The translations under genes were made by a program, and so were the position numbers. Below, piece by piece: positions 20,591 to 62,747 of a DNA stretch of 64,000 bases (within the stretch, counting starts at the first letter, position 1; each line of letters starts with the position of its first letter). Where the stretch lies: NCBI GenBank assembly GCA_032718475.1, contig JAUCBJ010000981.1, forward strand, positions 1 to 64,000, in the 5' to 3' direction. The notes beneath the pieces were generated by a model, which saw nothing but the letters and a program-made list of their open reading frames with translations, did not search any database and was not told the origin of the DNA. The stretch comes from Nemertoderma westbladi. Taxonomy: Eukaryota > Animalia > Xenacoelomorpha.

Positions 20591-20811
20591 TATTTTCCAC
20601 ATACTCATTATATTAACCGCGATTTCACAAGTACCCTTTGAAATCTATTTGCATGGTTCATGCAAAATTTCATCAAAATGGTTAGCGCCGTTTTTGCTCT
20701 AGGTCAGTAGTCAGTTAGCCAGTAGTCAGTAGCCAGTAGTCAGTAGCCAGTAGTCAGTAGCCAGTAGGCAGTAGCTTTTTTTTCTTACAGTAATCAAGTC
20801 TAACGACTTTC

Positions 20812-25796: not shown

Positions 25797-26389
25797 TGTG
25801 ACGGGATCAAGGGATCCCGACCGGTTTGTTGAACTACGCGTCACCGCGATATTGAGAATGGGAAAAGTTTGTTGTTATCTCTTTGATTCTTTAGTAATTA
25901 ATATCAATCAAATGAATAGTCAATAATAGCACAGTTGTGATGGATAATGTATGTGTATTGTATACTGGTAATAGGATAATAGGTGATGGTGACGGTGACG
26001 GTGGAAAACATCACCGGTCTGTACTGAACTGAATGACTGAGTAAACTGACTAACTGATATAATTAACTGATAATGTATGTATTCATTCCTACATTACTTT
26101 GGCCTTTGTCCAGTGGATACTTTTCCCGGCTCCCATTGGTTGATGACCTACTTCACGCCTCTCACCTCTGTGGGAGTGCATCCCCCCCCCCCCCGCTGTT
26201 GGTTATCTGCCCTCTCGAGGTGGTTTGACCTCTAACCTCCCTTTGTGTGGCTTTTGGGGTGTATGTTATCCCCGTTATTGGGCGTGATACGAGATTGGTT
26301 GTTATCAATCTCGTATCTCCAATATTGCTGAAAAGGGCGCCACTTCCCAACTTTATGGGGGTAATGAGGCGGAATTGTATCCGCTCACA
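25797..26389 (-). mobile_element. Solo LTR related to the LTRs at 48323 and 54656
   Basis: TGTGA...TCACA termini, flanks TAAAT/TAGAT (5-bp TSD with one mismatch), and colinear motifs shared with the 549-bp LTR. Confidence 0.85.
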
Positions 26390-30420: not shown

Positions 30421-30439
30421 CCACTTAAGCTAACTTAAT

Positions 30440-30585
30440 TCGATTTAGAAAATCTGCAGAACTACAGAATAGAAATACGATTTAGTAAATCTGCACAACT
30501 ACAGTACAAAAATACGATTTAGTAAATCTCCACAACTACAGTACAAAAATACGATTTAGTAAATCTTTACAACTATAGTACAAAC
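30440..30585. repeat. 37-bp minisatellite, left block
   Basis: AGTACAAAAATACGATTTAGTAAATCTGCACAACTAC about 4 times; the same motif recurs at 34040-34170. Confidence 0.9.
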
Positions 30586-30586
30586 A

Positions 30587-33500
30587 TTTTTTTTACTTAC
30601 TAATTGATATTATTACAACAAACAAATACAAACAATAAAAAACACAAAACAAACAATGGCTCTAATACCCACCACCAGGAAACAATCATACTTTAAAAAG
30701 AAAAACTTTTAGGTAGGAGCGGGAAAAGTCCAACAATATATATTATTTACAGTTTTATTTACATGGCTAATGTTGGGAGACCGGCCCCGTCCTCAAATCC
30801 CAGACCGCTACGCCACCTCGTGCGAGATCCACGCAGGCAGTGGGACGTACCGCAGACAATGGCGAACTACACTCGTGTGCGGACCCATCCCATAATGGTG
30901 GCGTAGGGTTTACCCCAGCAGCTGTGAAGTTTGGTGGCGATAATGCGGATCAGCATGTTCGCCTGCGGTGCCAACACTACGTCACACGAAGCCACGAAAG
31001 GTGAGAAGTCGCCGCGACGAGCTGCTACAGCAGCCGCGTACAACCGCTTCTTCTCATCTTCCGTAGCCTCGAGAATGGTCATAGGAGCACGTTTAGCGTA
31101 AGACTCGGCGTCAATGTTGGTTGACCTGATATCGATCAATGCCTGAGCCTGTGTGTTAAATGTGCCCCTAATCCCTACATCGCAACGCAGCCCTGCTCCA
31201 TCACCATCCTCCATCTGCTCCCTCACCACCGGCTCCAACATGACATTGCGCGGCCCAAACGCCAATGCAGCAAGGTCACCCACGGTGTCGCGCAACTCAC
31301 TGTGGCACTGGATGACATTCTTACAGACGATTCTTACAATTCAAACCGTGGTTCAAATCAAAGGCGGCCCCGCATCCGTCGCACCGACTGGGAATGCCGA
31401 GGAGGGGTCTCCCGTACCGAACTGCCACCATATCGCAGAATTCTCGTGGGGAAAGGTCATACTGGAGGTCAGCACGGGGGAGAGAAGAGATCCAGCTGCC
31501 GGTTTTGTACTCCGCTGCTCGGCGGATTGTGTGGCAGCGGTGTTCCGTCAATGCCCCCAGTGCCTCCTCGAACTCGGAAATCTCAGCCAGCTTCCTGGTC
31601 TCACCATCCTCCTTCCTTGCCCTCACTAAACATTCCCAATGAGCTGAGAGATCAAACTCCTCTGTTCCAGCCATCGCACCACAGAGAAATCGGGTCCCTC
31701 GGGTTGAGACGAGGTACGACGGGTCGGCCTCGGATACCAGGTTTCGCAGACCCATACCTCCGCGTTGTGGGGACAAACTGAAGAGTTTGCGCTCGTCCGG
31801 CGTGATGGACCCTCCGAGCATGGCAGGGAGAAACCATTCGGCAATGGCAGTTTCAAGGACGGTGAATTCCTCTTCGCAGTCAGCGGTGACCCTCTGTATG
31901 TAGGCCCACTCGCGCTGCAGCGAGCAAACCATGTCTGAGAAGGCCGCCTGCGGCTGGGAATCCGCCATGGTTGCCAACACGTCAGTCGCATCTACCCATG
32001 CCGCTACCTTCGCCCGGACGAACTGGCGCTGCTCTCCTGCACTCCCGAGGAACCCACTGAGAAATCGGTGTCCTGTGACCACTTTTACAGGGTGGTCACG
32101 GAACACTCTGCGGGCCTCATCTTCATATTCCAGGGCTACCACCAGGTAGCACTTCGACGGCTCGGGATTGTAGCCAAAGGATGGTCCAATGTCGATCAGC
32201 CTCTCGAACCACCGCAGTAAGTTGGCGAGTTTGCCCGCCCCGGCCGAGTCGTCGGCGTACCAGCTCTCGCGAACCGAAGGTGGCGGATCAACTGGAGGGC
32301 TCCGGTGGCATACATGAGCATTGCCAGTGGGTCGCACTGAGTTACGCCCTCCGCACTGAATATGATGGTATCCGTCCCCTTCATCACAAGGATGCTGTGA
32401 CCACGGTAGCTATTATAGAGGAATGTGGAGCAATGTGGCCACAGGCAACGTGTGTTCCACAACACAGCCACCCGGTTGAGTGAGTTGAATGCGTTCGCCG
32501 CGTCCACCAATAGCACGCCCCAACCCTAGTCAGCGTTGTCCTCAAAGAGTGACGACATCGAGTGTATCACCGCCTCAACTCCGGCTTAGGTCCCCGCGGA
32601 CAGCTGTTCGGCGCCACACGTGATGGTGACATTGTCCCCTGTGATCATGGCCATTGCGCGGGCCATTATCCAGCGAAGACACTCCCCGATTCCGATAGGC
32701 CGCACACCCGGACACTTATCCAGCGCAATAAGTCGGCCAGACATCAGCGCACGGAACGACTCCCATGAGACGACAACGTTCGCTAGTGTGCGGGTGAATG
32801 CAGCCACAGTGTCACGAAGTCGCTCGCTGTGGGCGCCATAGTGGAGCAGGTAAACCCGCCAGTGCGTTGAGTCGCTGCCAGCGGGCCCACTCCCACCGTG
32901 GGGCCGCCGAGCGACATCCTCAATGTGTGCCGCAGTCACATCGACATCGACTTTAAGTGGCAGCTCGCTACAATGGATGGTTGAGTCCGAGTTGGGAGGA
33001 GCCGCTGCAGGGTGTTTGTCCTGTACAACATCGATGTCTGCTTCTGGTTCCAGAACTCCTCCTGAATCTCGTCCCATCACCCAACGGACCGCGCTCCTAA
33101 CCTTGCCCTCTAGCATGAGCCTCATGAACACTCGGACAGTGTGGCCGATATCCTTATCTGAGGGCTGAGTTCCACTGTGCCTCCCTGAAGAATGCAGAGA
33201 GGAGCCGCACCTCCTGTAACAGAGTGTCTATCTCGCTGGAGCACCACATCACCACCCTGCGGCTGATAAGGCGGCGAATATCGGCTGCCTTCGCGATCTT
33301 CGGATCTCAGTGAGTGATCAGTGCATCAGCCATCATCAGTCATTCGGAATGAGCCAAGGCGTCCCCCCAACTGAGTCCCGCCACCAAGTTCCGGACCTCG
33401 GTGTCGAGGAGAGACACGACATCCCTTCCAACGGAACCACCTGGAAGTCTGTATCGTGATCCCTGCAGCTGGGTGACTCTGCGCCACTGGTGTAGTAGGT

Positions 33501-34040
33501 GGTCAGGAGGAGCCCCTCTGCCGCTAAGTGGTGCACCAAAAGCTCTTTCCATAAGACCTTCAGGGTCTACACTCTGTGGAGGACCTGAAGCACCAGGTAG
33601 CCAGAACTGATCGAAAGTGTCCATAGGTTTGACCCTGCTTCTGTTTGGAAGGAGTGTGGAGCCAACTCCTGACAGTGGCGTCCGTGGGTGGAATCTGTTG
33701 ATCGGTGGCGTTTGTGGGCGGCATCTTTTGAAGAGTGGCGTTTTTGGGCTGCTTCTTTTGAAGAGTGGCGTTTTTGGGCAGCGTCTTTTGAACGGTGGCA
33801 TTCGAGGGTGACGTCTTTTGAACGGGGGCGTTCGTGGGCGGCGTCTGTTGAACGGTGGTGTTCGTGGACGGCGTCTGTTGAACGGTGACGTTCATGGACG
33901 GCGTCTGTTGAACGGTGACGTTCATGGGCGGCGTCTGTTGAACAGTGGCGTTCGTGAGTGACGTCTTTTGAACGGTGGTGTTCGTGGGCGGCGTCTGTTG
34001 AACGGTGGCATTCGTGGGCGGCGTCTGTTGAACGGTGGCA
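30587..34040 (-). mobile_element. CRE-like non-LTR retrotransposon copy B, near full length but frameshifted
   Basis: YRLPGGSVGR N-terminus, ALDKCPGVRPIGIGE, LLVDAANAFNSLNR, GVTQCDPLAM, WYADD, CDGCG..HGLNCK zinc finger, LRCDVGIRG..LIDIR endonuclease. Short A-tail (T run at about 30587). Confidence 0.88.
33672..34040 (-). repeat. 30-bp tandem repeat (~12 units) in the 5' part of CRE copy B
   Basis: GCGTCTGTTGAACGGTGGCGTTCGTGGGCG units; 10-aa periodicity in the minus-strand ORFs. Confidence 0.9.
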
Positions 34041-36023: not shown

Positions 36024-36839
36024 TTTCATAATGTTCTGGATACATTTTTTTTAATGTGCCTTTAGGAGATCCGTAGGTTGAGGATTTTTTTGCAACTAAT
36101 TTATGAATAACATTTATCCTCAGGGTAAAGTGTCGTATGTGTGGAACTTATTTATAAACTAAATGTATTATCCCCTGCTGTGACTAATTTAATTGTCTGG
36201 ATGCATTATCTGTATTCCTACCACAACACACTGAAGTCCGGCGTTATGACAGCAAACCAGTTCCTACAGTTTATGGTTCATATTATGTCTGCATGCTTAT
36301 TGTAAAATGGTACATTAGGCTGGAGGCCTTTCATTGTTCAAACAGTTTTGATTTAGTTTGATCTACAACTAATTGAAAGTGACATTAAATCGGACTGGAA
36401 TTATTAGAATATATTTAACTTCATTGAATGCCTCTGCTTTCTCTTTTCAAAATATCCATGATATTATTTTTTCGAATATTGATCTGATATTGCAGAATGT
36501 ACTGCATCTATAACGACCACATTGGACATCATGGCATAAAGATGTTACACTCGATAATATCACTAATACTGTTGTAATATTGATAATACCCAGATAAGGT
36601 ATTCACATATAGTATGTGGGGGTGTATGTGTAGGTGTACTTTTACATGTATGGCTGGATAACTAGAGTATAGTCTGGACTAATTTTACTAGCAAAGAGTT
36701 TCCCCCACGGATGATATTAAATCCTCCTAGTTAACCTCGGGATCGATATCATTCTAATTTGTTCTACCCGCTAATTTTATACCTCGTGTATCAACTCTGT
36801 ACGGCCCTACGTACGTACAGTCTATTAAACACAATAACC

Positions 36840-40549: not shown

Positions 40550-40614
40550 ATAACAGTATAATTATGACTAAAGAAATACAGATAAATGTATTAAATAGAG
40601 ACTCTAAAAGTGAA

Positions 40615-41539
40615 GATGTCCTTAGATCATTGTAATGATGATGGGGTGATGATAACTCCACCTACTGGCTCCAGAAGTCGAGGAAATCCTGCCAAGTACC
40701 TAACTGATCTAGACTTTGCTGATGACTTAGGAGTACTCTCAGAATCATTAGAGGGAGCCCAACGGCTCCTCAGCTCATTAGAACATGCTGCTTCTAGTGT
40801 TGGTCTTTTTATTAACTCCAGAAAGACCAAAATTCTGACAGTTAACTTTGAAAGTCCTCAGCAAGTCTCTGATCGGATGAGCATAAGCTCAAAGGATGGT
40901 ATGCTTGAGCATGTGGGCGACTTCTGTTACCTGGGATCATGGATCCGGAAGTCAGGTGAGGACCTTCGAATACGTAAGGGAAAGGCATGGGCAGCCTTGA
41001 ATAGGCTTTCCAGGATTTGGAAGTCCCCGAGAATTAATCGAAAACTTAAGGTCCGATTATTTAGAGCAGCAGTAGTTCCAGTACTCCTCTACGGGAGTCC
41101 ATGCTGGGCTCTAACTGCTGAGGACACCAAATATCTGGATGGCACATTCACAAGAATGCTACGCCGGGTTCATTGTGTCAAGTACAATGCACACATCTCC
41201 AACGAGACACTATATAACATTGGAGGTGTCTCATTGGTTCCCCCAAGCTTGACACTAGAACAAAATCGCCTCCGCTTTGCAGGACATTGCTTTCGCCGTG
41301 AGGACCAGCCAGTGCATAATCTTGTACTTTGGCAGCCTCATGGAGTGAATAAGCATGGTGGACAGCCCATGACTTTCTTGAGACGCATCTTAAAGGACAC
41401 TGGCCTTAAAGATGCGGATGATCTAGCAAATGTCATGGGTGATAGGGAGTTGTGGCGGTGCAATTTTGTTGACAAGCCGGCACAGCATTCTTAAAAATGC
41501 AGCTGCAATGCAGCATGCCGATCCTAGTAGTAGTAGTAG
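40615..41539 (+). mobile_element. 5'-truncated RTE LINE with (TAG)n tail
   Basis: DLDFADD, FCYLGSWI, RLRFAGHCFRREDQP. (TAG)n at 41526-41539; TSD TAAAAGTGAA at 40605-40614 and 41540-41549. Confidence 0.93.
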
Positions 41540-44434: not shown

Positions 44435-45878
44435 TAAAGTATGCTTCTTTGACACTACCTATAGAAACAGGGGACTTCACACCTGCCGAACTCCAAAGAA
44501 GCATTAAAAGCATGTCCAATAATAAAGCGAGTGGATTAGATGAAATCCCAGCGGAGGTATGGAAAACCGGAGTGCTAAATAGACCATTATTGAATGTTTG
44601 CAACCGGATGTTAAAAGGGGAAAAGCCACCACCAATTGGACTAAAGGTCAACTAAAGCGTCTCCCCAAAAAAGGAGACCTCGGCATACCAACAAACTATC
44701 GTGGGATCTGTCTGCTTGTGGTAGCTGCCAAAATATACAATAAAATGATTCTATATAGGATTAGGCCTCACATAGAGAAACTACTGCGTAAGAGCCAAAA
44801 CGGATTTCGACCAAGTAGATCAACAATAGCTCAGATACTTGCACTACGGAGACTGATTGAAGGAATTAAGTCAAAGAATCTCCCCGCAGTCATGACTTTT
44901 GTGGACTTCAAGAAGGCATTCGACTCCATCCATAGAGGTAAAATGCTTGAAATCCTAAGAGCTTATGGAATACCAGAAGTAATTGTTGCTGGCATTGGAT
45001 TGTTATATTGTGACACAGAAGCGCAGGTACTCTCACCAGATGGTGAAACTGAGTTTTTCTCAATCCTGGCTGGCGTACTGCAAGGTGACACATTAGCACC
45101 ATTACTATTTGTAATTGTGCTGGATTATGCAATGAGGACGGCCACAAAGGGTGAAGATCTGGGATTCACACTTCAAGAACGCAGAAGTGATATCCGGCAA
45201 CTACAGTCACAGACACCGACTTTGCGGATGACATCGCCCTGCTCTCTAATACGCTAGCAGATGCACAGCTTCTACTAAATAAGGTGGAGAGGGCTGCTAA
45301 GGAGGTTGGATTGCATATAAATGCTACCAAGACCGAATTCATGACCTTTAATGTTGATGGAGACTTGACAACCATTGATAATAATCAACTAAGGAAGGTC
45401 GATGACTTCCAGTACCTTGGATCATGGATAGAGAGTAGCAAAAAGGACATAGAAGTTAGGAAAGCAAAGGCTTGGGTAGCTCTATCAAAAATGGATACCA
45501 TCTGGAAATCAGATCTCTCCAGGCACCTGAAGACTAAGTTCTTTCGAGCCACAGTGGAAAGTGTAATTTTATACGGGGGTGAGACCTGGAAACTATCTGG
45601 ACTGTACTAAATCACATTGGAGGTGTTCAATTAGTCTCCCCTAGCTTGACACTTGAACGGAACCGCCTCCGCTTTGTAGGACATTGCTTTCTCCGTGAAG
45701 ACCAGCCAGTGCATAATCTTGTGTTTTGGCGGCCTTATGGCGCGAATAAGCATGGCGGACAGCCCATGACTTTCTTGCGACGCATATTAAAGGACACTGG
45801 ATGATCTAGCAAATATCATGGGTGATAGGGAGTTGTGGCGGCGCAATTTTGTCGACAAGCCGGCACAACATTCTTAAT
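44435..45878 (+). mobile_element. RTE LINE (RT domain, frameshifted) joined to the 3' end of a different RTE family
   Basis: NYRGICLL, FVDFKKAFDSIHR, GVLQGDTLAP, DFADD, FQYLGSWI; 45613-45878 matches 41217-41494. Confidence 0.88.
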
Positions 45879-47759: not shown

Positions 47760-48322
47760 TATTAGGTGACATTATATTAGTAATATCACCTTCTCAACTG
47801 TAATTGGTAAAAAGCCACTTTCCCCATTTTCCGCTGGGTAGTGCAGGGAATTGCATCCGCTTACACTCCCCCCATGCTATCTTCCTGGTGAGAAGATAGC
47901 ATCAACCTTAAGTGCGCTTCAATTCCGCTGGAATCCAATCTAGTATTGGATGTGGGGTGGAATTTTCTTCTCGGGGTCAGCTTTCCAGACTGGCCCCCCT
48001 GGGTCTGTTTTCACTACCCATCCTTGGTACATCTGCGAGCTAAGTTGTACCAAGGCATCTGGCGTCTCTGTTTTAGACGATCGCCCTCACCCCTCACACA
48101 ATTTTATGTGTCGGACTTTGTTGTCCGTTTCTCTCTCACTAATCCCATAGGACTTATCCCCCTCCACGCTCGCTCCCCACTCTTGAATCTCGCACTCTTT
48201 ACTTCCCAATACCCCAACACATCCTCCCCATGCTCCTCCCACACTCAACCCATCTCATTCTCACTCACTTCTATTGGGCTTCACATTCTCGTTTATGCCG
48301 TCGCACTCAAGAAGTGAGGTCC
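47760..48322 (-). mobile_element. Older relative of the Gag-only LTR element: 3' LTR remnant, PPT and adjacent internal region
   Basis: ...GGAATTGCATCCGCTTACA-CTCCCCCC-ATGCTATCTTC... is colinear with 48850-49200. Confidence 0.8.
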
Positions 48323-49259
48323 TGTGACGGGATCTACGGATCCCGGTTTATCCGTTGGGTTTTCTATCCACGCGTCCCCGCCGTGTGTGAAAGGTAAAAG
48401 AGTTCTGATGTTCGGTAATATGTATAAAGGTATAATAGTCTGATATAGCACAGTATAGTATGACACGGTTACCGGTAGATAAGTATGATGGCGGTAGCGG
48501 ACGGTGACAGAAGTCCCCGTTCCACCCTACTGATCTGACTGAGTAAACTAAACTGAATAGGGAAGCACCAACAGGTAATATATGTACTGCACAGTTGGCC
48601 ATATTACTGTACCTAGTCGATGCTGTCCCCCCATTGGCTAATATCCCACTTCTCGCCCTTTCACCTTCCCTGGTGTGTTTCCCGTTGCCCCTGTTGTTCT
48701 CTCTCTGTTAGGGGTTTGGCCCCTGACCCCTATTGTGTGTGTCTCCTTTGGGGCCTATTGTCCCCGTTTACTGGGCTGACACGAGGTTGATTGGTAATCA
48801 ACCTCGTGCTCCCAATATTGATCAACGGCTTACTTTGTGGGTTCATGTTAGCGGAATTGGATAAGCTAACACTCCCCCCCATGCTATCTTCCCGGTGAGA
48901 AGATAGCATCCACCAAAAAGTTCGCTACAATTCCGCTGGATCCCGATCTAGTATCGGGTGTGGGGTGGGTTATTTTCTTTCGGAGCCGGCTTTCCGGGCC
49001 GCTCCCTATGGGTATGATATTGCTACCCTCTGGCGTTTCGTGTCGGGCCGATCGTGCGCTTCTCTCACACAACTTTTGTTTCCCCAACACTTTCGCCCTG
49101 ACTCTACTCTTCCTCTCCTCTCTTGCTCTAACTCTTGGACTTCCCTGTCCCTCACTCTTCCTCTCACTTCTCCCCACCCACGCTTGAATTGCGCCCACAC
49201 TCTCTCCACACTATCTCCATACCACCTCTCGCTATCTCTCTTGCCCTCCCTAAGGCCCT

Positions 49260-50695
49260 AATCTCTAATGCTACCCCTGTGCTATCATACCATCTACCTA
49301 CTGCTTACTAACTCTAACTATCTAACTCTACTAACTACTAACTCTACTCTCCGCTAACTCTCACTACTTCTGGCTCTAACTAAAGCCTCTAACTTTCTAC
49401 TAACTCTAACTAGAACTACTAAGTCTAGCTAACTCCTACTAACTCTCTACTTCTACTAACTCTACTTGACTCATCTAAGTCTACCAACTCTCTAGCCCTT
49501 TAACTAGAACTCCCTAACTCTACCCACTCTTCTAACTACGTGGCGCTTGCGGTGCCAACAACCACTCTACTATCTGGCACCCTATGTGCCCTTCTACTAC
49601 TCAACTACCTCTCTAGCTCTACTACCTGGCACCCTATGTGCCCTCTCTGCTCTACTCTACTACCTGGCACCCTATGTGCCCTCTCTACTACTCTACTCTA
49701 TCTCTAACTCTCTAACTCTACTACCTGGCACCCTATGTGCCCTCTCTACTACTCTGCTCTATCTCTAACTCTCTAACTCTACTACCTGGCACCCTATGTG
49801 CCCGTCTCTACTATTCTACTCTATCTCTAACTCTCTAACTCTACTACCTGGCAACCTATGCGCCCGTCTCTACTATTCTACTCTCTGGCACCCTATGTGC
49901 CCTCTCTGCTACCTCTAACACTCTACTCTACTACCTGGCACCCTATGTGCCCTCTCTACTACTCTACTCTATCTCTAACTTACTTCCTTTACATCCACTC
50001 GCCTGCACGTGACGCTCTGAATGCCGGCAGAGTGGGTACGTTAATTATGTGAACTACTACTAACTCTTACTAACTCTACTAACTCTCTACTAACTCTACT
50101 AACTCCACTAACTCTCTACTAACTCAACTAACTCTACTACTAACTCAACTAACTCTACTACTAACTCTTTTTGTGCCCGGCACCTCTTGTGCCCGGCACC
50201 CACCCTAATTAACATACCCTGCTCTTACATCAAACACGTCATCACGCCCGTGCCCCACTAAGTTCAGCGCATTCCCTACTAACTCTAACTACGTGGCGCT
50301 TACGGTGCCCACAACCCTCTACTGCTACTACTTTCTTTCTAACTAACGGTACTACGTACCCTCTAACTAACTCTAACTCCACTAACTAACGGTACTACGT
50401 ACCCTCTAACTCTTACTCTAACTAGCGGTACTACGTACCCTCTCACTACTCTAACTCCACTAACTAACGGTACTACGTACCCTCTTACTAACCTAACTAA
50501 CGGTACTACGTACCCTCTAACTAACTTCTCTAACTCCACTAACTAACGGTACTACGTACCTTCTTACTAACTTCTCTGACTCTACTCTTACTAACGGTAC
50601 TGCGTACCCTCTAACTCTTACTCTCTAACGGTACTATGTACCACCCTCTAACTAACTAACTAACTAACTAACTCTTACTACCTAACTTCTACCTA
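49260..50695 (-). repeat. Low-complexity (CTAACT/CTACT) region with two arrays of short palindromic hairpins
   Basis: GGCAC-CCTAT-GTGCC x8 (49576-49951) and GGTAC-TAC-GTACC x8 (50348-50642). Confidence 0.9.
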
Positions 50696-50727
50696 CTCTA
50701 TTATTTAATTATTTTCATTAATTTTAA

Positions 50728-53700
50728 TTAAATAATTATTTTATATTTTATGCGTGGGAAGGGCGTCTCGCCCTCATTCCCACCCCCCTCAGTCCAAAAC
50801 TTTGGACGACTAAACACTCTCAGGTGCCCCTTCTTCCGGTAGGCACTCTCCCGCTGCCCTCCTATACGTCCTCTAACTCTTCGCCACACTCTCTTCGGTG
50901 CCACCTTTGCTGGCCTCCCCCTTCGTATGTGCGCTGGCATTAAAGCCCTCGACGACCCCCGCTCGTCCCTCGGTATACACGGCGTCTGCCCGTGTAATGC
51001 CCCCTCGCACTGTGTCAGTCCTGCGTGCGTATGCAACACGCCTCCTTCTACTTTCCCGACTCCTTTATGTTTGCTCATGGGCTTCTCTGCCCCTGGTTTA
51101 GTCCTTTCATATCCTCTCCCTTTCCAGCACTCTCCGGATCTGTGTCCTTTTACCACACATCGATGACATAGTCCGTTTGCGTCTGTGTAGGCTACACGAT
51201 CTCGTTTGGGCAACGCTTGCCAGTACTTGCAACTCCTGGTCTTATGGGTTCCGTCCCGATGTAATTGACATTGGAATCCTGGATTATAGCGTTTCCTGTA
51301 TAGTCCTTCACGTATCGCGCTTAGGTTTATATGTACCGATTTAGTGTTTCGATTGTCTAGACTCGGCCTACTGGGTATATTGGGATTATGTTTATTTTTG
51401 GTGTTATTTTCTTCCTGTCCCCGCCACGGTGTGGCCCTGCTACCAGCTAACTGTGGACTAGCAGTCCCCTGTATGGCCGCGTGTGGTAGTGACTGTCCGC
51501 ACGACCTGCTCTCGTCCAGGGAGTTCGATGTTCTTGCTCCTATCGGGGTATATTGTCGATATTGTGATGGGGGAATGTCACCCTGTCCCCCCCCCCCGCC
51601 GGTATGTTTGGTACTGGGGTTGATGTTAATATATTGGGGCCCATACGTCTATCTCCAATAACTCTCCCCTCCCCTGGATATATGTTATGTCCCTGTGTAT
51701 TATAGTCATGCTGCTGTACCGATATAGGCCTACCTACCTCTCGCCTACCTACCGGTATGTACTCCGCGACTTCCGGGTTTAATCCCGTCGTTCGCGCTAC
51801 CCCATCGCCTACTCTATCTCTCCCAGCATGGCCTATAATAGTATGTGCAGTAAGGCCTACAGTATGTCCTGCAGTCTGCATGTGCCCTTTCGAACCGAAG
51901 TTTATTCTTCGCGAATCTCGAATCTCCCCGCGACTACTGCACTCTCGATCGGCAGCTATATCCCGTCGGGAAGCTTCTCTTCGATCCCCTCTCCTGTTCT
52001 CGACTTGATATCGGTACGTCCTGTACCCCTCTCTTGGCGTGCGGTGCGTTTCTCCGGGGCGACGGCAATCTCCCGAAGTTCGACCCCACTGACTCCCTAA
52101 CTCCATCTCTACTATCGACGGTCCGCTATCTGTCCTCACACTCCTATCGTTCGTGGCGACACCTTTTCTACTATCTCCTCTTCTTCTCTTTTCAGTGCAG
52201 TATTCCGGCTCATGAGATCTCTCGTCGACCTCCCGGTTAAACTCCACTGTTCTTCTTCCCTCTTCTGATCGGGCTCGACGCTTCGCCTGCCCTCTCGCGA
52301 CGTCAACCTGCCTCTCTCTGCTCGATCGCACGCCGCTGGGGATACTCGCAATCCCCCTATTACTCTCCGTCGCCGGGTGTTGCGGTTTACCTGATTCGGC
52401 CCGCGCATTATCCGCTGACGGCTGTGGGACACTCTCTGCCCCCCCTCTCTCTCTACTAATCTCTCGCGGTGGGGTGCCCGTAGCCCCCCCCCCACCCGCC
52501 ACTTCTAACTTCACTATCTCTTACTACACTTCTGCGTCCCTCTTGTCGGACATTCTCTACCCCCCTTCTCTCGCCACTAATCTTTCGTGGTGGGGCTCTT
52601 GTAGCCCCCCCCCCCCCCCCCACTCGCCACATCTAACTTCACTATCTCTTACTTCGTCTCTACACCCCTCTCTAGTCGACGCACTGTCTTTACTACGGCT
52701 GGGTCTATTCACCCCCGCCTCTCTCTCTACTACTGCGTGGCCTATCAGGCCCACCTCGGGTTGGCTCAACCCCGCTACCTCCTGCCTACCAACTACGTGG
52801 CCTACCAGGCCGCCGTCGGGTTGGCTCAACCCTGCCACTTCCTGCCTACTAACTACGTGGCCTACCAGGCCACCGTCTGCCGGGTTATGTACGTCCGACA
52901 CGCTCATATTAATAGCACCATTCCCAATATTATTTGTTAAATCAATTAAATTATTAGAATTTGAAACGGGATTATTATTTAAATTATTTAAATTACTTAG
53001 ATCACTACTATTCTCTAAACTTAAATTATTATTCGAATTATTTTGCGGGTTTGAATTGAAATTATTATTTAGAGTATTTGTATTTAAATTTAAATTACTA
53101 CTACCCGGTAAAATATTATTTCCTGTAATAAAGGGATTAGGGTTATCTACTACGGTACTATTAATATTAACTATTTCTAACGTACTACTATTACCCCCCC
53201 CCCGCCCGTACGGTTACTATGTGCACTATACGTGTACCGCACGCTCTGTTCCTTTTCCTCTCGCTCTGTGCTTATAAGTGGGGGCTCACTCTCTGATATT
53301 TCCAATCGCGCCAGTTCTAGTCGGCGCTTCTTTAGTTTGGCTTGATATTGCGCAAGCCCGCCTAGCACGGCATGCAAATCATCCCGCCTGCGCTCACCCT
53401 CTATCCCCCTCTCTCGCATATTCTGCTCGGCCAACTCTGCCTCTCTCGCAAGCATCTCAAGCCGCCTCGCCGGCTCGCTCTCTACTCCCATCTCTCGCTC
53501 TCTACACTCCTTGGCTCTCTCTCTACACTCCTCGGCCCTCTCTCTACACTCCCTCTCCAACTCTCCTACCTTCTCTGAGAATGCGGTTTCCTCTCTCAAT
53601 CGTCTCTCTAACTCATTCTGCTCTGTCGCAACCATTTCTAATTTATACGCCATGCGTTCACTCTCTCGCACCCGTCTTTCTTTTACGGAGGATGTAGCAG

Positions 53701-54490
53701 ACTTATCGGTTGCGACGGACTCCCGCCGCCCCTCCGTCCTACTAACTTTCCCCCGCCTCCCGGAACTTCCTCCAACCGACGAGACCGAATCCTCGGAGTT
53801 AACCTCGGATTCGCCCTCCTCAGGTCTCTTCCAACCCACTAATTTTACTCCCCGGGCATCGACTAAGTATGGCCCTATGTACACTACGCTAGGTTCCATA
53901 CCCCCACATTCCCATAGTTCAATCAGTTCGTTGGCAACCTCCCTCGCTCTCTCCTCGGCTAGTTCTCTCTGCCCAGAACACACTAGGTGATCAAAGTATC
54001 TGTTCGACTCACCTAGTCCTTTTGTCATCTTGACCTCGTCTATCCTCGCCCCCTCCTTGGCCTCCTTTAGTAGTTCCCGGGTCGCGTTGTAGGCCCGTCG
54101 AAGTCGATCAGAAACCCCGACGTCCTCGTCGCCGACCTCTCTTCCGTCTCTCCGGGTCCGACGTCATACCGACGGCCCCACCGTCGCCGTTCCGGTGGAC
54201 CGTTCGTCGTCCTCGGCCTGTGGCTGGCCGGCGACATCGGTACGTCGACCTTCACTCCGCGTCGACTCGTCTTTCTCCCTTTCGACTCCCGACTCGTCCT
54301 CTCTTTGTAGACGACCCCCCACATCTTGGTTCGCCGGGTCGCTCGTTATCGACGTGGCGTCAACGTGCGTCGACGTGGTCGGCGTAGCATCGACCGGCGT
54401 CGTGGGTTCGTATCGTCTCGCCGTGGCCTCGCGGATCGTTAGATCGTCGTCCGGGGTCCGCGGCGGTGTCGTTCCTTTCTCTCGACTCAT
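50728..54490 (-). pseudogene. Gag-like ORF (~1250 codons when joined): N-terminal domain, coiled coil, Asn-rich and Gly/Arg-rich tracts, BEL/Pao-type zinc knuckles
   Basis: ORF pieces 54164-54490, 53177-54028, 52557-52907, 51540-52514 and 50728-51213 join across one TGA and four G homopolymers. The C-terminus has CQLHRDGTHKTRSC...LCHRCVVKGHRSGEC. Confidence 0.75.
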
Positions 54491-55559
54491 CTTTGTCTTT
54501 GGTGGCTGGCAGCCACAGTCTGTCAGTTGGTTGGATCTAGTTCTATCACTGTCAGACTGTTAGGGCAGCTGCTAGGATTCTATCAACTGTCAGGGCAGCT
54601 GGGCGGATCTGATTCTGTCACTGTCAGGGCAGCTGGGTGGATCTGATTCTGTCACTGTGACGGGATCTACGGATCCCGGTTTATCCGTTGGGTTTTCTAT
54701 CCACGCGTCCCCGCCGTGTGTGAAAGGTAAAAGAGTTCTGATGTTCGGTAATATGTATAAAGGTATAATAGTCTGATATAGCACAGTATAGTATGACACG
54801 GTTACCGGTAGATAAGTATGATGGCGGTAGCGGACGGTGACAGAAGTCCCCGTTCCACCCTACTGATCTGACTGAGTAAACTAAACTGAATAGGGAAGCA
54901 CCAACAGGTAATATATGTACTGCACAGTTGGCCATATTACTGTACCTAGTCGATGCTGTCCCCCCATTGGCTAATATCCCACTTCTCGCCCTTTCACCTT
55001 CCCTGGTGTGTTTCCCGTTGCCCCTGTTGTTCTCTCTCTGTTAGGGGTTTGGCCCCTGACCCCTATTGTGTGTGTCTCCTTTGGGGCCTATTGTCCCCGT
55101 TTACTGGGCTGACACGAGGTTGATTGGTAATCAACCTCGTGCTCCCAATATTGCTCAACGGCTTACTTTGTGGGTTCATGTTAGCGGAATTGGATAAGCT
55201 AACAGGTCCATCCAATGTCTCATCCTCCTTTTTCAGTCAATTAGTCCCCAGTCCCAGTAGCTAATTGGAAAAGGTTATATCTGACTATAGTACATATATT
55301 ATAGTTTCTTTGATTGCTTCTTTGATACATTGATTGATTACCTACGTATATACAAATTGCACTCATGTTAATTGCACTTAGGAATTATTTGTACTGGTCT
55401 GTCCATGCGGTGCCTTCTAGACACGTTGACATAGCTTGTAATCAGTCCTAAAGTTCTATGTTGCTCCTCCTGCACCCTCCGGGAACCATCTCAGTCCTGC
55501 CTGGGTCGCTTCCTCCCTTCCTGTTTACTCTTGAGGCTACTCATCCTCGCTGATACCGT

Positions 55560-57497
55560 CTTACCTCTTATTTCTCAATCTGGGGTTTTACCTATAGGTC
55601 TAAGCGATCATTTTATAGTTTTTTGCACAAGAAAGACACAAAAATCTTTTTTCGGGGATCATAAAACAGTAACAGTTAGGTCTATGAAAAATTACAGCAA
55701 GGAACGCTTTTTAAGTTTGTTAGTTCATTCTGACTGGGAACCCTCTTTTAAGGCCGCTGACATTAACCATGCGTACACTGTTTTTAAAGATATATTTCTA
55801 AAGGTACTTAATACTGTAGCTGTAGCACCAATTAAAGAAATTAGTCTTAAACAACGCACTGAGCCCTGGATGACCTCGGGTATTCTTAGTAATATCATAG
55901 AAAGAGATAACTATTTGTATAAATTTAGGAAATACCGTGTTTTAGCTGATTATAATAATTACTGCAAATATAGAAACCTTGTCCAACGGGAAATAAAAAA
56001 AGCGAAATCTGAATATTTATACAACAAAATAAGTGAGAATAAAGATAATCCTAAAAGTCTATGGTCTACCCTAAAATCTTTAGGTTATAAAAACCTTAAA
56101 TCTAAATCGAATATTGTTCTGCAAGATAACGGTGAGCTGATTCATGATTATACTCTAGTTAGTAATTTATTTAATAATTATTTTACTAATGTTGCCTCTA
56201 ATTTAGTTAAGAAGTTACCGTTATCAAGTAATAAATATAGTATAGGGTCCGAAACTCTAAATAATTTTTATTTAGAAAAGTTACAAAATTCTGAAAAGTT
56301 ATTTTTAAAACCCATTTCTGAGGATTTCGTTTTACAAAATCTACTTAGCCTATCAGCCTCAAAAAGTACCGGTCTAGACCTTATACCTGCCCGTTTTCTT
56401 AAGGATGGTGCTGAAGTACTTAAAGTGCCTATTACTTTTATTATTAATTACTCTATCGTAGCTAATGTAGTACCAGACGAACTGAAATTAGCTAAGGTTG
56501 TTCCTCTGTATAAAAAGAATAGTAAAGTAGAACCCTGTAATTACAGACCTGTTAGTATCTTAAGTGTTGTATCTAAAATTCTAGAACGTTCTGTTTTTCT
56601 ACAGCTGGAAGCACATCTTAGTAGGCTAAATCTGATCTATGAACATCAGTCCGGTTTTCGTAAATAATATTCTACAGACACCTGTCTTATTAACTTAACT
56701 GATACAATTAGATGTAATAACGCAAAGGGTTTAATACTGGTATGGTAATGTTGGACCTACAAAAGGCTTTCGATACTATAGATCACGAAATTCTGCTTGG
56801 TAAGTTAGGCATGATGGGTGTAGGTTCTATAGACTGGTTCAAGTCCTACCTGTCAGACAGAGGTCAAACTGTAGTCATTAGCAAATCGCAGTCTACTGTA
56901 CAAGAGATTACCTGTGGTGTACCGCAAGGTAGTATCCTCAAGGTAGGTCCTCTGCTTTTTTATGCTATGTAAATGATATGATAAGTAGTATAGATCCCGA
57001 TTTTAAACTCATTTTATATGCCGACGACAGTGCTCTTATTTTCTCTCATAAAGATCCTATCCATATTTCCCAAAAGTTAAGTGCAGTTCTAGAATCCTGT
57101 AATGAGTGGTTGGTTGATAATAAGCTATCCATTCACTACGGTAAGACTGAAATTATTTTGTTTGGTTCCAACAGAAAGTTAAAGAAGGTAACTAAGTTTG
57201 AAGTCACTAGAAATGGACATAAGATTGAAAATAAAAAGGAAGTTAACTATTTAGGCGCCACATTGGATAACTGCTTATCAGGAGAAAGTACAGTGAAAAA
57301 TATTTTCTCGAAAGTTAACAGTAGGCTTAGGTTTCTATACAGAAATAAAAATAGTTTAAACACCGACTCCCGCAAGTTAATTTGCACTTCTTTAATACAG
57401 TGTCACATGGACTATGCATGCTCTTCTTGGTATGAAGGCTTAACCAAACAGCTTAAATGTTAAGTTACTTTGCTCTTCTTTAATACAGTGTCACATG
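55560..57497 (+). mobile_element. L2/Crack-type LINE fragment (APE end plus RT), frameshifted
   Basis: [54 protein letters not shown]. Confidence 0.9.
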
Positions 57498-59750
57498 GTT
57501 CCTTGGGCATGGGTGTTATTAACTCACGGTATCGCTTCGCAGGTGGTCCCACTGAGTGTTCCTCCTGTTTCCCCCTGGTAGCGTCCCACAAGATCATTTT
57601 CATCGCATGCGGCATGTGTTCCGCCAGAAAATCCCTGAATTCTATCCTATTTTCTGGTGACTACCTATCCAGATATCTTTGGGTGTTGATGACCCCTCCG
57701 TATGATGCCGCTGTCGCTACCTCCTGATACGTGAATGGTAGTCTCCTCTTGGTAATCTGCTGGTAGGCTTGTAGATTAATGTTGAAGAAGCCCCACCGGA
57801 ACTCCTGGGCCTTCATCCTTTGCCTTGTCATGACTCCGACAATGGCCCACTCCTCGAAAATGCGAAACTTCTCCTCGTCCTCCATCCTGTTACACTAGCA
57901 CTCAAAGTGCCCCCTAAACTTGCTCTTCGAACACCTGTGGTGCAACCTTGGGCATGCGCCCATCCTCTGCATAGACTCGCGGCAGTAAAGACACGCCGTC
58001 CCCTTCTGGTAACGGTACAGACAGTTCTTTTGCTGATTCACTTGAATCACCACGCGCATTTCCCATCGACATCTGTGGGGCATTTACTGCCCCCCCCCCC
58101 CCCCTCTCGTCGCTAACTGGTTGCGGTGGGGTGTCTGTAGCCCCCCCCCCCCCCCCCACCCACCAATCACTTCTCACTTCGCCCCCATGCCCGCGTTTTC
58201 CTCCAGTCGACACGTCATTTCTATATATATCTCCCTGCGTTCGTTCGCCTGCATTTCTCCCTGCGCAACCGCGCGGCCTTGTAGGCCCGCCCGGGCTAGG
58301 CGTATTACCTGTATCACCAACATTCGTTTTAATTATACAGCCACTAGCTTCACCCTGCTGATTTGTTATATTATTACTTGCATTATTTTGATTAATTTCA
58401 CCGGAATTATTTATAATATTATTATTTACTGTACCCGGGTTATTATTTAAATTATTTTGATTATCTGGCGCACCAATATTTACATTATTATTAATCAAAA
58501 CATTATTTCCTGCAAGAAATGTTTCATTAGTATTAGGGTTATCTACTACGGTACTATTAATATTGATGTTTTCATTAAACATATTGTCATTACCACCCCC
58601 CCCCCGTCTGTCCGGTTGCACCAGTTTTGGGTCTGTTGTCTGGCACCTATAAGTGGCGTATTAACAAAGGTTTCCATCACCCCTGGTTCCTCATAAATAC
58701 TTCCCGAACCAGCCTCGCTCTCTGATAAACCCATTTTTGCCAGTTCTAATCGCCCGTTTTGCTTCGCCTGATACTGCATTAACCCCCTCAACTGGGTATG
58801 CATATCATCCCTCATACGTTTACCCGCTCTCTCTCCCTCTCTATCGTCTCTAATACTCTGATCAGCCTCCCTTGCAATCCTCTCAGCTTTCCTCGCATCT
58901 CGCTCTTTGCGCTCGTTCGTTTCTCTCTCAACCCGTTCTCTGCGCTCACTCATCCCCATCTCCTCTCATTCCCTATAATTTCTCGCCACCTTCTCGGCCC
59001 TCTCTTTGCACTCTCTCGCTAGTTCCCTTTCCCTTTCTAGCAACACAGTCCCCTCATCCAGCTGTTTCTCTAGTTCCTTTTGGTCTAGCACGACTATGTC
59101 TAGCTGACATGCCAGATCTATCTCTAACACCCTTCTTGCTTTCGCGGAGGATGTAGCGGACTTTTCGGTTGCGACGGACTCCCGTCGCCTGTTCATCCTA
59201 CTGATTTTGCCATGCTTACTAGCATTCCTACTAACCAATGACACCGAATCTTCGGGGTTAACCTCGGGTTCGGCGTTGTGCGGATCCGCCCACCCCACTA
59301 ACATAATCCGCTCGCATCCACTAGATAGGGCCCTACATACACTACACTAGCTGCCACCACTTTGGATCGCCACAATTCAAACAGTTCTGTGGCTACCCCC
59401 CTCGCCCTCTCACTTGCTAGTTCCCCCTGCCCAAATCAGACTAGGTAGTGGAAATGTTTGTTGCACTCACCTAGCCTCTGGTACAACTTGGGCTGGTCTA
59501 CCTTTCCTCCAGTTTTAGCGTCCTTTAACAACTTCCTCGTGGAGTTGTACCCTTGTTGCAGGCGATCACTCGTCCCGACGTCTTCCTCCTGGGACCTTGC
59601 CTCCTCGTCCGCTGCCGTACCGTCGGTCCCACCATTGCCATTCCGGTGGGCCGCTTGCCGCCTTCAGCCACTGGTTGGCTAGCGACTCCGGTACCTCGTT
59701 CGCCGCTGTGATCTCGCGTCGACTCACTCCCCTCTCCTCCTGGCAGTGAA
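57498..59750 (-). pseudogene. Degraded Gag-like ORF homologous to the N-terminal half of the 50728-54490 protein
   Basis: EVNPEDSVS...RRESVATEKSATSS matches EVNSEDSVS...RRESVATDKSATSS; GLMQYQAK..RLELA matches GLAQYQAK..RLELA; NINSTVVDNPN is shared. Confidence 0.85.
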
Positions 59751-60848: not shown

Positions 60849-61670
60849 TACTACTACTACTACTACTAGGTCGAGCGAACTCGGACAGTGGAAATGAGAA
60901 CCTTCCAGGCTCCCCGATTCTCTATAGTTGTCGCAATTTCGTTTCTCCCAAGTTCAGCATCCCTTTCAAGTTGATCTATTTATGTTATTATGGCTGGTCA
61001 TTCACAACTACACTTTCCATGCATGAGTTGGTTGCCAGAAAAGTAGATCTGGTATGACCTCGTCTTTACTTCGCCAGCAGTGCCCACTGAATCTTAATCT
61101 ACGTTCACGGAGGGTGGTTGATACAGGTGGTATTGTACCATAAAGCTCGGTGTTTGTCATGTGTTGTCTCCAGCTGATGTTTAGGGCTGCCCTTAGTAGT
61201 TTTGTGTAGCAACCATCAATTTGTTGTTCAAGTGATTTAGTCAGTGTCCAGGTCTCACCCCCATAAAAAATACACTTTCCATTGTGGCTCGAAAGAACTT
61301 AGTCTACAGGTGCCTGGGCTGGAGAGATCTGTTTCCAGATGGTATCCATTTTTGATAGAGCTACCCAAGCCTTTGCTTTCCTAACTTCTATGTCCTTTTT
61401 CTACTACTCTCTATCCATGATCCTAGATACTGTAAGTTGTCAACCTTTCTTAGTTGATTATTATCAATGGTTATCAAGTTTCAATCAACATTAAAAGTCA
61501 TTAATTCGGTCTTGGTAGCATTTATATGCAATCCAACCTCCTTAGCAGCCATCTCCAATTTATTTAGTAGAAGCTGTGTATCTGCTAGCATATTAGAGAG
61601 CAGGTAATGTCATCCGCAAAGTCGGTGTCTGTGACTGTAGTTGCTGGATATCTACTACTTCTGCGCTCTT
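60849..61670 (-). mobile_element. 5'-truncated RTE LINE with (TAG)n tail, same family as 45170-45590
   Basis: Reverse complement matches 45170-45590; (CTA)n at 60849-60868. Confidence 0.88.
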
Positions 61671-61808
61671 GACTATAATTTTTATATTAACATTAACAAT
61701 GTACAGCAGTACAGCAACCTAACAAATTAGGCCTAGCTGACACCTGATGTTCTAATACAGTTTCGTAAGCGGCCCTCCCGCACTAACTTAAGTTATATAA
61801 CCCTTATA

Positions 61809-62747
61809 ATGGCTCCCAAGCCTGATGTTCAAGCCATCACAGCCAGACTGGACAACCAAGACAAGATTCTTAAGTCCCTAGCAACTGGTATCCAGAAAAT
61901 TTCATTCCAACTTATCCAACTTAGTCCAGCTGTCGGTACCAACCCAGCTGTCGGTACCAACCCGCCAACTCTTGCTGATAAAATAAACTTCCTCCGTCAG
62001 GAGAATCAGTCCCTTAAGGATGACTTAGTGGAATCCAAACGCAGTAACGACTCTCTAAGTCAGTACATTAACAGGAATAATGTGCTTATTCACAGAATAC
62101 TGGAATCCAATACAACCAGCGATTGCAAGCAGATTCTCGATATCTTAACTTCAGTTGGAATCAAACACTACCAAGTCGATGTTATCCACTGCCTTGGTAA
62201 ATCCACCAATAGAGTTGGTACCAAAAGTAGGCCAATCATAATACGATTTCTTGGCTACTCACCGACACCGAGATATAATCTATTTAGGGAGAAAGATAAA
62301 CTTCCTCCTAATGCTTACCCCTCCAATTATTTAACCCCTTTCCATTCATCCCTCCATCGCTCCACTACCTCACTAAAGAAAAAGCATATAGTCCATACGG
62401 CCTGCCCGTACAATGGCAACATATTCGTTCACCTTGGAAAAGATACTAACCCTATTCTGATCATCGACCACCAGAGTGATATCGCAAGATATAATCTATT
62501 TAGGGAGAAAGATAAACTTACTCCTAATGCTTACCCCTCCAATCATTTAACCCTTTTCCATTCATCCCTCCATCGTTCCACTACCTCACTAAAGAAAAAG
62601 CATATAGTCCATACGGCCTGCTCGTACAATGGCAACATATTCGTTCGCCTTGGAAAAGATACTAACCCTATTCTGATCATTGACCAGAGTGATATCGATG
62701 GTATTGAGTCCGACCCCAAAGCTACCAGTCATGTCCTACGCGGATGA
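61809..62747 (+). CDS. LINE ORF1-like protein (coiled coil plus RRM-like domain) with an in-frame 72-aa duplication
   Basis: LRQENQSLK coiled coil, RNNVLIH, IHCLGK...RPIIIRF; 216-bp duplication starting at 62271 and 62487. Probably transposon-derived. Confidence 0.65.
   Translation: MAPKPDVQAITARLDNQDKILKSLATGIQKISFQLIQLSPAVGTNPAVGTNPPTLADKINFLRQENQSLKDDLVESKRSNDSLSQYINRNNVLIHRILESNTTSDCKQILDILTSVGIKHYQVDVIHCLGKSTNRVGTKSRPIIIRFLGYSPTPRYNLFREKDKLPPNAYPSNYLTPFHSSLHRSTTSLKKKHIVHTACPYNGNIFVHLGKDTNPILIIDHQSDIARYNLFREKDKLTPNAYPSNHLTLFHSSLHRSTTSLKKKHIVHTACSYNGNIFVRLGKDTNPILIIDQSDIDGIESDPKATSHVLRG

What the first reader, a model, noticed from the sequence alone, without database searches (positions are those of the whole stretch)
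48323..55204. Recently mobilised Pol-less LTR element encoding only a large Gag-like protein plus a structured non-coding RNA
Seen: 549-bp LTRs with one visible mismatch, a perfect GGTCC TSD and a PPT. The interior is about 3.8 kb of Gag-like coding sequence (coiled coil, Asn-rich and Gly/Arg-rich tracts, C-terminal knuckles) plus about 1.8 kb of non-coding hairpin arrays, with no pol remnant. I also cannot recognise a capsid domain. Known: 5-bp TSDs and this knuckle spacing fit BEL/Pao, and Pol-less elements need a helper. Inference: a satellite-like parasite that supplies its own RNA-binding Gag and borrows a helper's Pol. Two older relatives (25797 and 47760/57498) indicate a long-lived family.
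Basis: partly seen in the sequence, partly recalled or inferred. Interest (0 to 1): 0.8.

Follow-up and report, generated by a model that had tools for sequence, protein, structure and literature searches.

The report
Gag-only retrotransposon lacking a recognisable capsid
This is a recently inserted copy of an abundant animal jumping-gene family that carries no copying enzymes and only one long gag-like gene, broken in this copy, with RNA-binding zinc knuckles but no recognisable shell domain, so it likely borrows both enzymes and shell from a helper element; gag-only parasites are known, but a shell-less one would be an unusual variant.

Summary
Observation confirmed. The minus-strand element has 549-bp LTRs with 1 mismatch, a GGTCC TSD and a PPT. 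It has one gag-like frame of about 1,250 codons, broken here by one stop and four frame changes, all at G-runs, and 1,856 nt of 3' non-coding DNA. No pol trace was found.

It is a family, not a private deletion. Thousands of contigs from two studies cover gag, the post-knuckle tail, the arrays, the PPT and the LTR. The gag N-half shows dN/dS 0.24-0.36 against an older relative. The knuckle pair is BEL/Pao-like (0 of 1,000 controls reach its score), but the third box and the BEL capsid region are missing.

New here: there is no TGG-type primer site; the leader is complementary over 9 nt to its own LTR (5 of 3,000 shuffles), a lead for self-priming. The hairpins are real, but a separate ncRNA is not shown and no helper was found.

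Gag-only LTR elements are known (TR-GAG, Bik-1/2), and this scan noted others in other genomes. Verdict: new variant of a known kind.

The parts
54656..55204 (-). 5' LTR, 549 bp, TG...CA
   Evidence: 548/549 identical to the 3' LTR
48323..48871 (-). 3' LTR, 549 bp
   Evidence: at 48821 all laid contigs (22 in X1, 10 in X2) carry the letter of the 5' LTR
48318..48322 (.). target-site duplication GGTCC, left copy
55205..55209 (.). target-site duplication GGTCC, right copy
55113..55141 (-). U3 hairpin conserved in three LTR families
   Evidence: 11-bp consensus stem, 6 of 11 pairs with changes on both sides, 0 broken, 3 sequences; window z -6.6
54885..54915 (-). candidate TATA-like and initiator-like motifs (inferred promoter)
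   Evidence: motifs at LTR positions 290 and 316; function untested
54837..54845 (-). 9-nt LTR segment complementary to the first 9 nt after the 5' LTR (possible self-primer)
   Evidence: 5 of 3,000 dinucleotide shuffles reach 9 nt or more; it also pairs inside the LTR in the MFE fold
54661..54678 (-). U5 terminal hairpin, 7-bp stem kept in the solo LTR with a different loop
54576..54655 (-). leader: non-TGG primer-site position followed by 34-bp repeats (2.4 copies)
   Evidence: copy-number variants among contigs (joints)
53204..54490 (-). gag-like N-half: disordered start, in-frame stop at 54166-54164, helical domain of about 95 aa, Ser/Arg linker, long coiled coil
   Evidence: dN/dS 0.24-0.36 against the older relative
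51598..53192 (-). gag-like middle: Asn-rich tract, 60-bp and about 120-bp internal repeats, Gly/Arg-rich low-complexity region; frame changes at G-runs
51127..51270 (-). double zinc knuckle, CX2HX4HX4C-X20-CX2CX4HX4C, BEL/Pao-like
50728..51126 (-). basic tail of 132 aa and stop; no third box, no protease motif
   Evidence: bridged by a 427-nt contig of X5
48910..50727 (-). 3' non-coding region: purine-rich (67%), tandem arrays with small palindromic hairpins (61-bp unit 49650-49884; 79-bp unit 50338-50568), then a hairpin block conserved with the older relative
   Evidence: covered by contigs
48872..48909 (-). 12-bp hairpin followed by the polypurine tract abutting the 3' LTR
25797..26389 (-). 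older solo LTR of the same lineage (593 bp, flanks TAAAT/TAGAT)
57499..59700 (-). gag-like part of an older relative (68.6% nucleotide identity over 732 bp), with a different C-terminal segment
47760..48322 (-). 3' non-coding end, PPT and LTR start of the older relative, into which the young element inserted
   Evidence: contigs of other copies end at 48322 and run on (records 2 and 11)

Best explanation
This is a recently inserted copy of a high-copy, pol-less LTR retrotransposon family, likely derived from BEL/Pao, that is likely copied and integrated by the enzymes of an autonomous helper and likely packaged in the helper's shell, because its own gag-like protein keeps zinc knuckles and a coiled coil but no recognisable capsid domain. 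Shown: LTRs, TSD, PPT, absence of pol, family-wide sharing of the pol-less interior, purifying selection on the gag N-half and the BEL-like knuckle pair. Inferred: the LTR makes one genomic RNA. Intact copies make a protein of about 1,250 aa whose knuckles bind that RNA and whose coiled coil joins it to helper Gag. The conserved U3, U5 and pre-PPT hairpins and the 3' arrays are cis signals of the genomic RNA, not a separate ncRNA. Minus-strand priming likely does not use a tRNA 3' end; self-priming is the lead. This copy probably cannot make the full protein, either because the breaks are real or because the G-run breaks are assembly errors.
For: LTR identity 548/549 and a perfect TSD. No Pfam family in 6 of 6 frames; no pol hit among 120 BEL/Pao polyproteins. 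15,289 (X1) and 7,494 (X2) contigs laid on 50650-55500 and 10,550 and 3,189 on 48150-51360, with 30 of 30 bins covered in both runs. Summed depth is about 4e3-3e5 in X1 over the element against 328 in the left flank bin. Exact-match X2 contigs reach depth 1,230 (gag, 139 nt) and 1,596 (LTR, 124 nt), against about 17-46 for low-depth contigs, which suggests tens of near-identical copies (rough). A 427-nt X5 contig spans second knuckle to tail with 12 differences; a 297-nt X6 contig spans LTR, PPT and hairpins. The listed indels inside gag away from G-runs and before the knuckles are in frame (3 of 3 shown: 51835, 53114, 53134; table cut). dN/dS 0.29 over 199 codons against 0.83 and 1.2 in shifted frames. 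Knuckle pair 28.3 bits on a profile of 95 BEL/Pao pairs; 0 of 1,000 ligand-fixed shuffles reach it (max 27.7). BEL capsid-region profile: best -3.8 bits in the element against 129.6 for the window's own BEL element. Apart from the N-domain and the Asn-rich piece, the 40-residue windows hold 5-33% hydrophobic residues, against 33-47% for the BEL capsid control.
Against: No genome was available, so copies could not be counted or read full length; no contig spans the element, and summed contig depth is not a copy number. No helper was identified. No relatives were found in protein collections, so a very divergent capsid cannot be excluded. The capsid profile is mostly from insect BEL/Pao elements and its positive control is the element used to collect them. 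The fold models are single-sequence and weak outside the coiled coil (mean pLDDT 59.8 and 42.9). The knuckle margin over the best shuffle is thin (28.3 against 27.7), the triple box is not met, and the first box has His where 94 of 95 BEL pairs have Cys. Selection was measured only on the N-half and against one old, decayed copy. A one-base indel is common in the post-knuckle tail (50801), so that tail is weakly constrained. One X6 contig leaves the element right after the second knuckle, and two X5 contigs carry a different sequence behind the LTR's PPT-side end; these could be pol-bearing siblings.
Confidence: 0.68

Rival explanations
1. Ordinary gag-only element whose Gag does form a shell through a capsid domain too divergent to recognise (TR-GAG or Bik-like), borrowing only Pol.
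For: Known gag-only elements keep a capsid, and Bik-1's was recognised by structure prediction after its ORF had stayed uncharacterised (PMC12067270 passages). The N-domain of about 95 aa is helical and conserved (58% identity, dN/dS 0.24). There are no homologues to build a profile from.
Against: The only globular candidate is about 95 aa and lies before the coiled coil. The region just upstream of the knuckles, where BEL/Pao capsid lies, is low-complexity and scores nothing on the capsid profile.
Confidence: 0.17
2. The gag is a decaying passenger: the family now spreads as a purely cis-acting LARD-like element and the protein no longer matters.
For: Five breaks in a copy whose LTRs differ by one base; length variants at G-runs and a common tail indel among copies. 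The dN/dS signal could date from the older branch.
Against: In-frame indels inside gag; frames of 218-328 codons stay open between the G-runs; four of five breaks sit in homopolymers, the typical long-read error site (own knowledge).
Confidence: 0.1
3. This copy is a private or minor deletion derivative of an autonomous family with the same LTR.
For: One X6 contig diverges right after the second knuckle; two X5 contigs have another sequence behind the LTR end.
Against: Tail, arrays and pre-PPT block are all deeply covered in X1 and X2; the interior has no pol remnant; the remnants of the older relative also show none (0 hits).
Confidence: 0.05

Closest known systems
TR-GAG elements of plants (Chaparro et al. 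2015, PMC4350172; abstract seen)
   Same: LTR element with one gag ORF and no pol, recently active
   Different: TR-GAGs are under 4 kb, from plants, with Copia- or Gypsy-like Gag; this is 6.9 kb, animal, with BEL-like knuckles and no recognisable capsid
Zebrafish BHIKHARI Bik-1/Bik-2 (PMC12067270; passages seen)
   Same: animal, young, gag-only LTR family; Gag with an N-terminal coiled coil and Gly-rich part
   Different: Bik Gag (617 aa) has a predicted capsid domain and is of lokiretroviral origin; here about 1,250 aa, knuckles, no capsid found
BEL/Pao retrotransposons such as Sinbad (PMC554778; passages seen)
   Same: knuckle pair with 20-residue spacer that scores on a BEL profile; TG...CA LTRs; 5-bp TSD, as in the window's own BEL element
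   Different: no third Cys-His box, no DUF1759 capsid region, no pol, first box CX2H, no TGG primer site
Wheat RLG_Sabrina and RLG_WHAM (PMC9744471; passages seen)
   Same: whole high-copy populations lacking RT and integrase, long-lived, with variants carrying different coding segments; the older relative here also has another C-terminal segment
   Different: Gypsy, plant, tRNA-Asp primer site, helper proposed (Wilma)
Culex cqUNK non-autonomous LTR elements (PMC3286476; passages seen)
   Same: animal, near-identical LTRs, internal tandem arrays, no known master copy
   Different: non-coding and with a tRNA primer site. CM-gag of Culex pipiens ('contains only a gag gene') was seen only as a reference title.
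Tf1/sushi self-priming (PMC7175516 and PMC6317226; passages seen)
   Same: no tRNA-type site; the sequence directly after the 5' LTR is complementary to a segment of the LTR
   Different: [quoted passage not shown]

Membership tests
LTR retrotransposon | TG...CA direct repeats, 4-6-bp TSD, PPT | tested here: met
BEL/Pao | triple Cys-His box (PMC554778) | tested here: not met
   two boxes only; third-box pattern in 76 of 95 BEL proteins, absent here; first box CX2H
BEL/Pao | knuckle pair similar to BEL/Pao nucleocapsid | tested here: met
   28.3 bits, 0 of 1,000 ligand-fixed shuffles reach it; spacer 20 is the mode, 78 of 95; no Gypsy or Copia profile was run for comparison
BEL/Pao | DUF1759 capsid region before the knuckles | tested here: not met
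   Pfam 0 hits; local profile -3.8 bits against 129.6 for the control
BEL/Pao | pol with protease, RT, RNase H, integrase | tested here: not met
TR-GAG | single gag ORF, no pol | tested here: met
   one gag-like frame, broken in this copy
TR-GAG | under 4 kb, plant host | tested here: not met
   6,882 bp; BEL/Pao neighbour in the window points to an animal
TR-GAG | Gag similar to Copia or Gypsy Gag | tested here: inconclusive
   no Pfam Gag family hit; no profile-profile search possible
Bik-type gag-only elements | capsid fold in Gag | tested here: inconclusive
   single-sequence models; fold searches returned only generic coiled-coil matches; the middle pieces were not folded
Tf1/sushi self-primers | primer site not complementary to a tRNA 3' end | tested here: inconclusive
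   no TGG in the first 25 nt of the leader; host tRNAs not available (0 in window), so tRNA fragments are untested
Tf1/sushi self-primers | primer site complementary to the first bases of the transcript | tested here: inconclusive
   9-nt complement at LTR 360-368; start site unknown; candidate initiator at 316
Tf1/sushi self-primers | RNase H cleavage makes the primer | not testable with these tools
   needs cDNA intermediates
Known structured RNA family | Rfam match at gathering score | tested here: not met
   one weak match, E 0.18, 25 bits against a cut-off of 55, in the leader

The most novel reading that the evidence does not exclude
A satellite retrotransposon that has dropped the capsid from Gag but keeps, under selection, a knuckle plus coiled-coil adaptor that loads its own RNA into a helper's particles, and that primes reverse transcription from its own LTR RNA within a BEL/Pao-derived lineage: a capsid-free, tRNA-free parasite of a retrotransposon.
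Probability: 0.2. Interest if true: 0.78.

Novelty: new variant of a known kind. Interest (0 to 1): 0.48.

Why it matters
Gag-only LTR elements are usually taken to donate capsid to a shared particle. A family that keeps nucleocapsid and coiled coil under selection but not capsid would point to a different strategy: a protein adaptor that wins packaging in someone else's shell. It would give a natural test of which Gag parts select RNA. A non-tRNA primer site next to BEL-type knuckles would widen self-priming beyond the groups named in the passages I read (Tf1/sushi, Tcn1, TAR). Such elements have no Pfam domain, so domain-filtered surveys drop them (the filter is described in PMC3118150). If the capsid is merely unrecognised, this is one more gag-only family.

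Tried and rejected

Homologue searches: knuckle region 0 of 16 and 0 of 1 candidates; N-domain 1 hit among 1.84 billion representatives, an outer-membrane efflux repeat, rejected as chance; Atlas gave only generic zinc-knuckle leads under 0.9 and nothing for the N-half; PDB sequence search 0 hits for two pieces.

Fold searches: viral library 0 matches at E 0.001 or better; the wide PDB search gave generic helical hairpins, best Z 8.3, with the N-domain barely tested; the knuckle model was too poor to search (pLDDT 42.9).

LTR-end pattern: 9 metagenome loci, none alike beyond the pattern; 0 viral contigs. Pairwise BLAST of the knuckle piece with the window's BEL Gag was not significant (E 0.95). 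A DSVS motif that I recalled from some BEL Gags was in 0 of 120 BEL proteins, so I dropped it. The window's autonomous BEL element (1967-8705) has other LTR ends and a TGG primer site, so it is rejected as helper. Troyka is rejected (CG...CG ends, 3-bp TSD; PMC12440569).

No RNA holder listed (X6 is only guessed to be RNA). The older relative's C-terminal segment (57885-57463) had 0 Pfam and no significant PDB hits and stays unidentified. Pairing of the primer site with a tRNA-Asp anticodon-loop fragment is a recalled idea, untested.

Literature searches showed no listing that describes a capsid-less gag-only BEL/Pao family. Subscription papers, Repbase and supplements were not seen and may hold one.
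Full report
Observation. The element lies on the minus strand at 48323-55204. Its LTRs (48323-48871, 54656-55204) are 549 bp, begin TG and end CA, and differ at one base; GGTCC flanks both ends and a G-rich PPT abuts the 3' LTR. At the mismatched base every laid contig (22 in X1, 10 in X2) carries the 5' LTR's letter, so the difference is private to this copy or an error. The insertion is therefore very recent. It sits in the 3' non-coding part of an older relative, and contigs of other copies of that older family stop matching exactly at 48322 and run on (records 2 and 11).

The coding part. One gag-like frame runs from an ATG at 54490 to a stop at 50730-50728, about 1,254 codons. In this assembly it has an in-frame stop at 54166-54164, where the older relative has a sense codon. 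It also changes frame at all four G-runs of 10 nt or more; contigs show length variation at two of these runs (table cut). Whether the breaks are real or long-read errors could not be settled. The order is: disordered start, a helical domain of about 95 aa (low confidence), a Ser/Arg linker, a long coiled coil (pLDDT 65-96), an Asn-rich tract, a Gly/Arg-rich low-complexity region, two zinc knuckles (51270-51127) and a 132-aa basic tail. Against the older relative, 199 aligned codons of the N-half give dN/dS 0.29 (0.24 and 0.36 by part), and shifted frames give 0.83 and 1.2. So this frame was kept as protein. The three listed indels away from G-runs and before the knuckles are in frame; a one-base indel is common in the tail (12 of 34 rows shown).

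No pol, no recognisable capsid. All six frames of the interior gave 0 Pfam families at E up to 1; single pieces gave only weak zinc-knuckle hints (E 0.06 and 0.11). I collected 120 BEL/Pao polyproteins using the RT of the window's own BEL element (best 120 of 200 hits). The interior hits them only at the knuckles (best E 0.029). A profile of the 95 knuckle pairs scores the element 28.3 bits; 1,000 shuffles that keep every Cys and His in place average 11.3 and reach at most 27.7. The 20-residue spacer is the BEL mode (78 of 95). But the first box has His where 94 of 95 have Cys, and the third box (76 of 95) and a protease motif are absent. A profile of the capsid region upstream of the knuckles scores -3.8 bits at best, against 129.6 for the control, and the matching part of the element is poor in hydrophobic residues. 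Limits: the profile is mostly insect-derived, the control is the seed element, no relatives were found, and fold searches on single-sequence models were uninformative. The protein works like a BEL/Pao Gag with capsid and third knuckle missing; it fails strict BEL/Pao membership.

Family or private deletion. No genome was held, so I used public runs: 6 of 7 listed hold the stretch, from 4 studies. On 50650-55500, 15,289 contigs of X1 and 7,494 of X2 were laid, with 30 of 30 bins covered in both; X5 covered 25 and X6 14. On 48150-51360, 10,550 and 3,189 were laid, again 30 of 30; X5 covered 25 and X6 16. Summed depth in X1 is about 4,000-314,000 over LTR, PPT, arrays and post-knuckle tail, against 328 in the left flank bin. 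The tool warns that this sum is no copy number. Single exact-match contigs are a better rough guide: depth 1,230 for 139 nt of gag and 1,596 for 124 nt of LTR in X2, against about 17-46 for low-depth contigs, which suggests tens of near-identical copies. A 427-nt X5 contig bridges the second knuckle and tail, and a 297-nt X6 contig bridges LTR, PPT and hairpins. X1 may be the assembled sample; X2 is another study. Against this reading: no contig spans the element, one X6 contig diverges right after the knuckles, and two X5 contigs have another sequence behind the LTR end. The older relative (68.6% identical over 732 bp) also shows no pol in its remnants, though a LINE interrupts it, and a 593-bp solo LTR lies at 25797-26389. 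A long-lived pol-less lineage is the simplest reading.

The non-coding part. The 1,856 nt are 67% purine on the sense strand and hold 61-bp and 79-bp arrays plus microsatellite-like runs, with two small palindromic motifs repeated 7 and 5 times. Six of 15 windows fold at z about -2.5 or lower, against 2 of 32 in the coding part. The last 250 nt are conserved with the older relative: 6 of 52 predicted pairs changed on both sides, and a 12-bp stem sits before the PPT (2 sequences). An 11-bp U3 stem has 6 compensated pairs and none broken in three LTR families. Rfam gave one sub-threshold match in the leader. The hairpins are real and partly conserved, but nothing shows a separate RNA; they are best read as cis signals of the genomic RNA. 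Array copy number varies among copies (joints).

Priming. The leader has no TGG in its first 25 nt, unlike the window's BEL element. Its first 9 nt are the exact complement of LTR positions 360-368; 5 of 3,000 shuffles reach that (I looked for this after seeing the leader). [quoted passage not shown] Here the best TATA-like and initiator-like motifs lie at 290 and 316, so the segment would be internal, and it also pairs inside the LTR in the predicted fold. In the solo LTR only its core is kept. Self-priming is a lead, about one in three by my estimate.

Mechanism. Shown: ends, TSD, lack of pol, family status, selection on the N-half, BEL-like knuckles. Inferred: transcription from the LTR; binding of the element's RNA by the knuckles; recruitment into helper particles through the coiled coil; reverse transcription and integration by helper Pol. 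No helper was found, and the neighbouring BEL element does not share LTR ends or primer site.

What is known. Non-coding animal LTR elements with tandem arrays are described in Culex (PMC3286476, passages). The BEL/Pao triple box is from PMC554778 (passages). I also saw passages of PMC6317226, PMC13570524, PMC3118150, PMC12440569, PMC8556966 and PMC3601003; no supplements. Eight searches listed no capsid-less gag-only BEL/Pao family; Repbase and subscription papers were not searchable. This scan has noted gag-only or gag-protease-only LTR elements in other genomes and no look-alike of this one.

Verdict. A real, young copy of a high-copy non-autonomous gag-only LTR family: a known kind, with two unusual features (no recognisable capsid despite selection on the protein; a non-tRNA primer site) that remain unproven. 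New variant of a known kind; interest 0.48. The capsid-free, self-priming adaptor reading has probability 0.2 and would deserve 0.78.

Noticed in passing
window 1967-8705 (+): Near-intact autonomous BEL/Pao element: LTRs of about 275 bp, 99.6% identical, TSD CTGAT, TGG-type primer site, DUF1759, Peptidase_A17 and integrase domains, one in-frame stop at 2966-2968.
   Followed up: partly
window 57885-57463 (-): The older relative has a different, more hydrophobic C-terminal segment of about 140 aa where the young element has its Gly/Arg region and knuckles; no Pfam or PDB match. It could be a capsid or a swapped module.
   Followed up: partly
window about 55570-57498 (+): 5'-truncated LINE with RT remnants nested in the older relative, with a 37-bp duplication at 57374-57410/57462-57498; the edges are approximate.
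   Followed up: partly
window 36703-36813 (-): A third, more decayed fragment of the same gag N-domain (54% identity over 37 aa).
   Followed up: no
window 51128 and 55204 (laid contigs): One X6 contig (depth 4.6) leaves the element right after the second knuckle; two X5 contigs carry a PPT-like start and then a different sequence behind the LTR end. Possible sibling or helper families.
   Followed up: no
window 20755-24116: Large 63-bp tandem satellite, about 51 units, about 95% identical.
   Followed up: no
window 28135-33227 (-): Two decayed RT-like elements in tandem; they look like CRE/NeSL-type LINEs from recall only, and one piece had 0 Pfam hits. A 30-bp-type array lies at about 33670-34040.
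   Followed up: no
window 8661-10538 (-), 40595-41494 (+), 44583-45877 (+), 61243-61672 (-): Several RT-like LINE fragments, some related in inverted orientation.
   Followed up: no
window 61737-62747 (+): 336-aa ORF that looks like a LINE ORF1 (from recall; only weak Pfam hits) with an internal 214-bp duplication.
   Followed up: no
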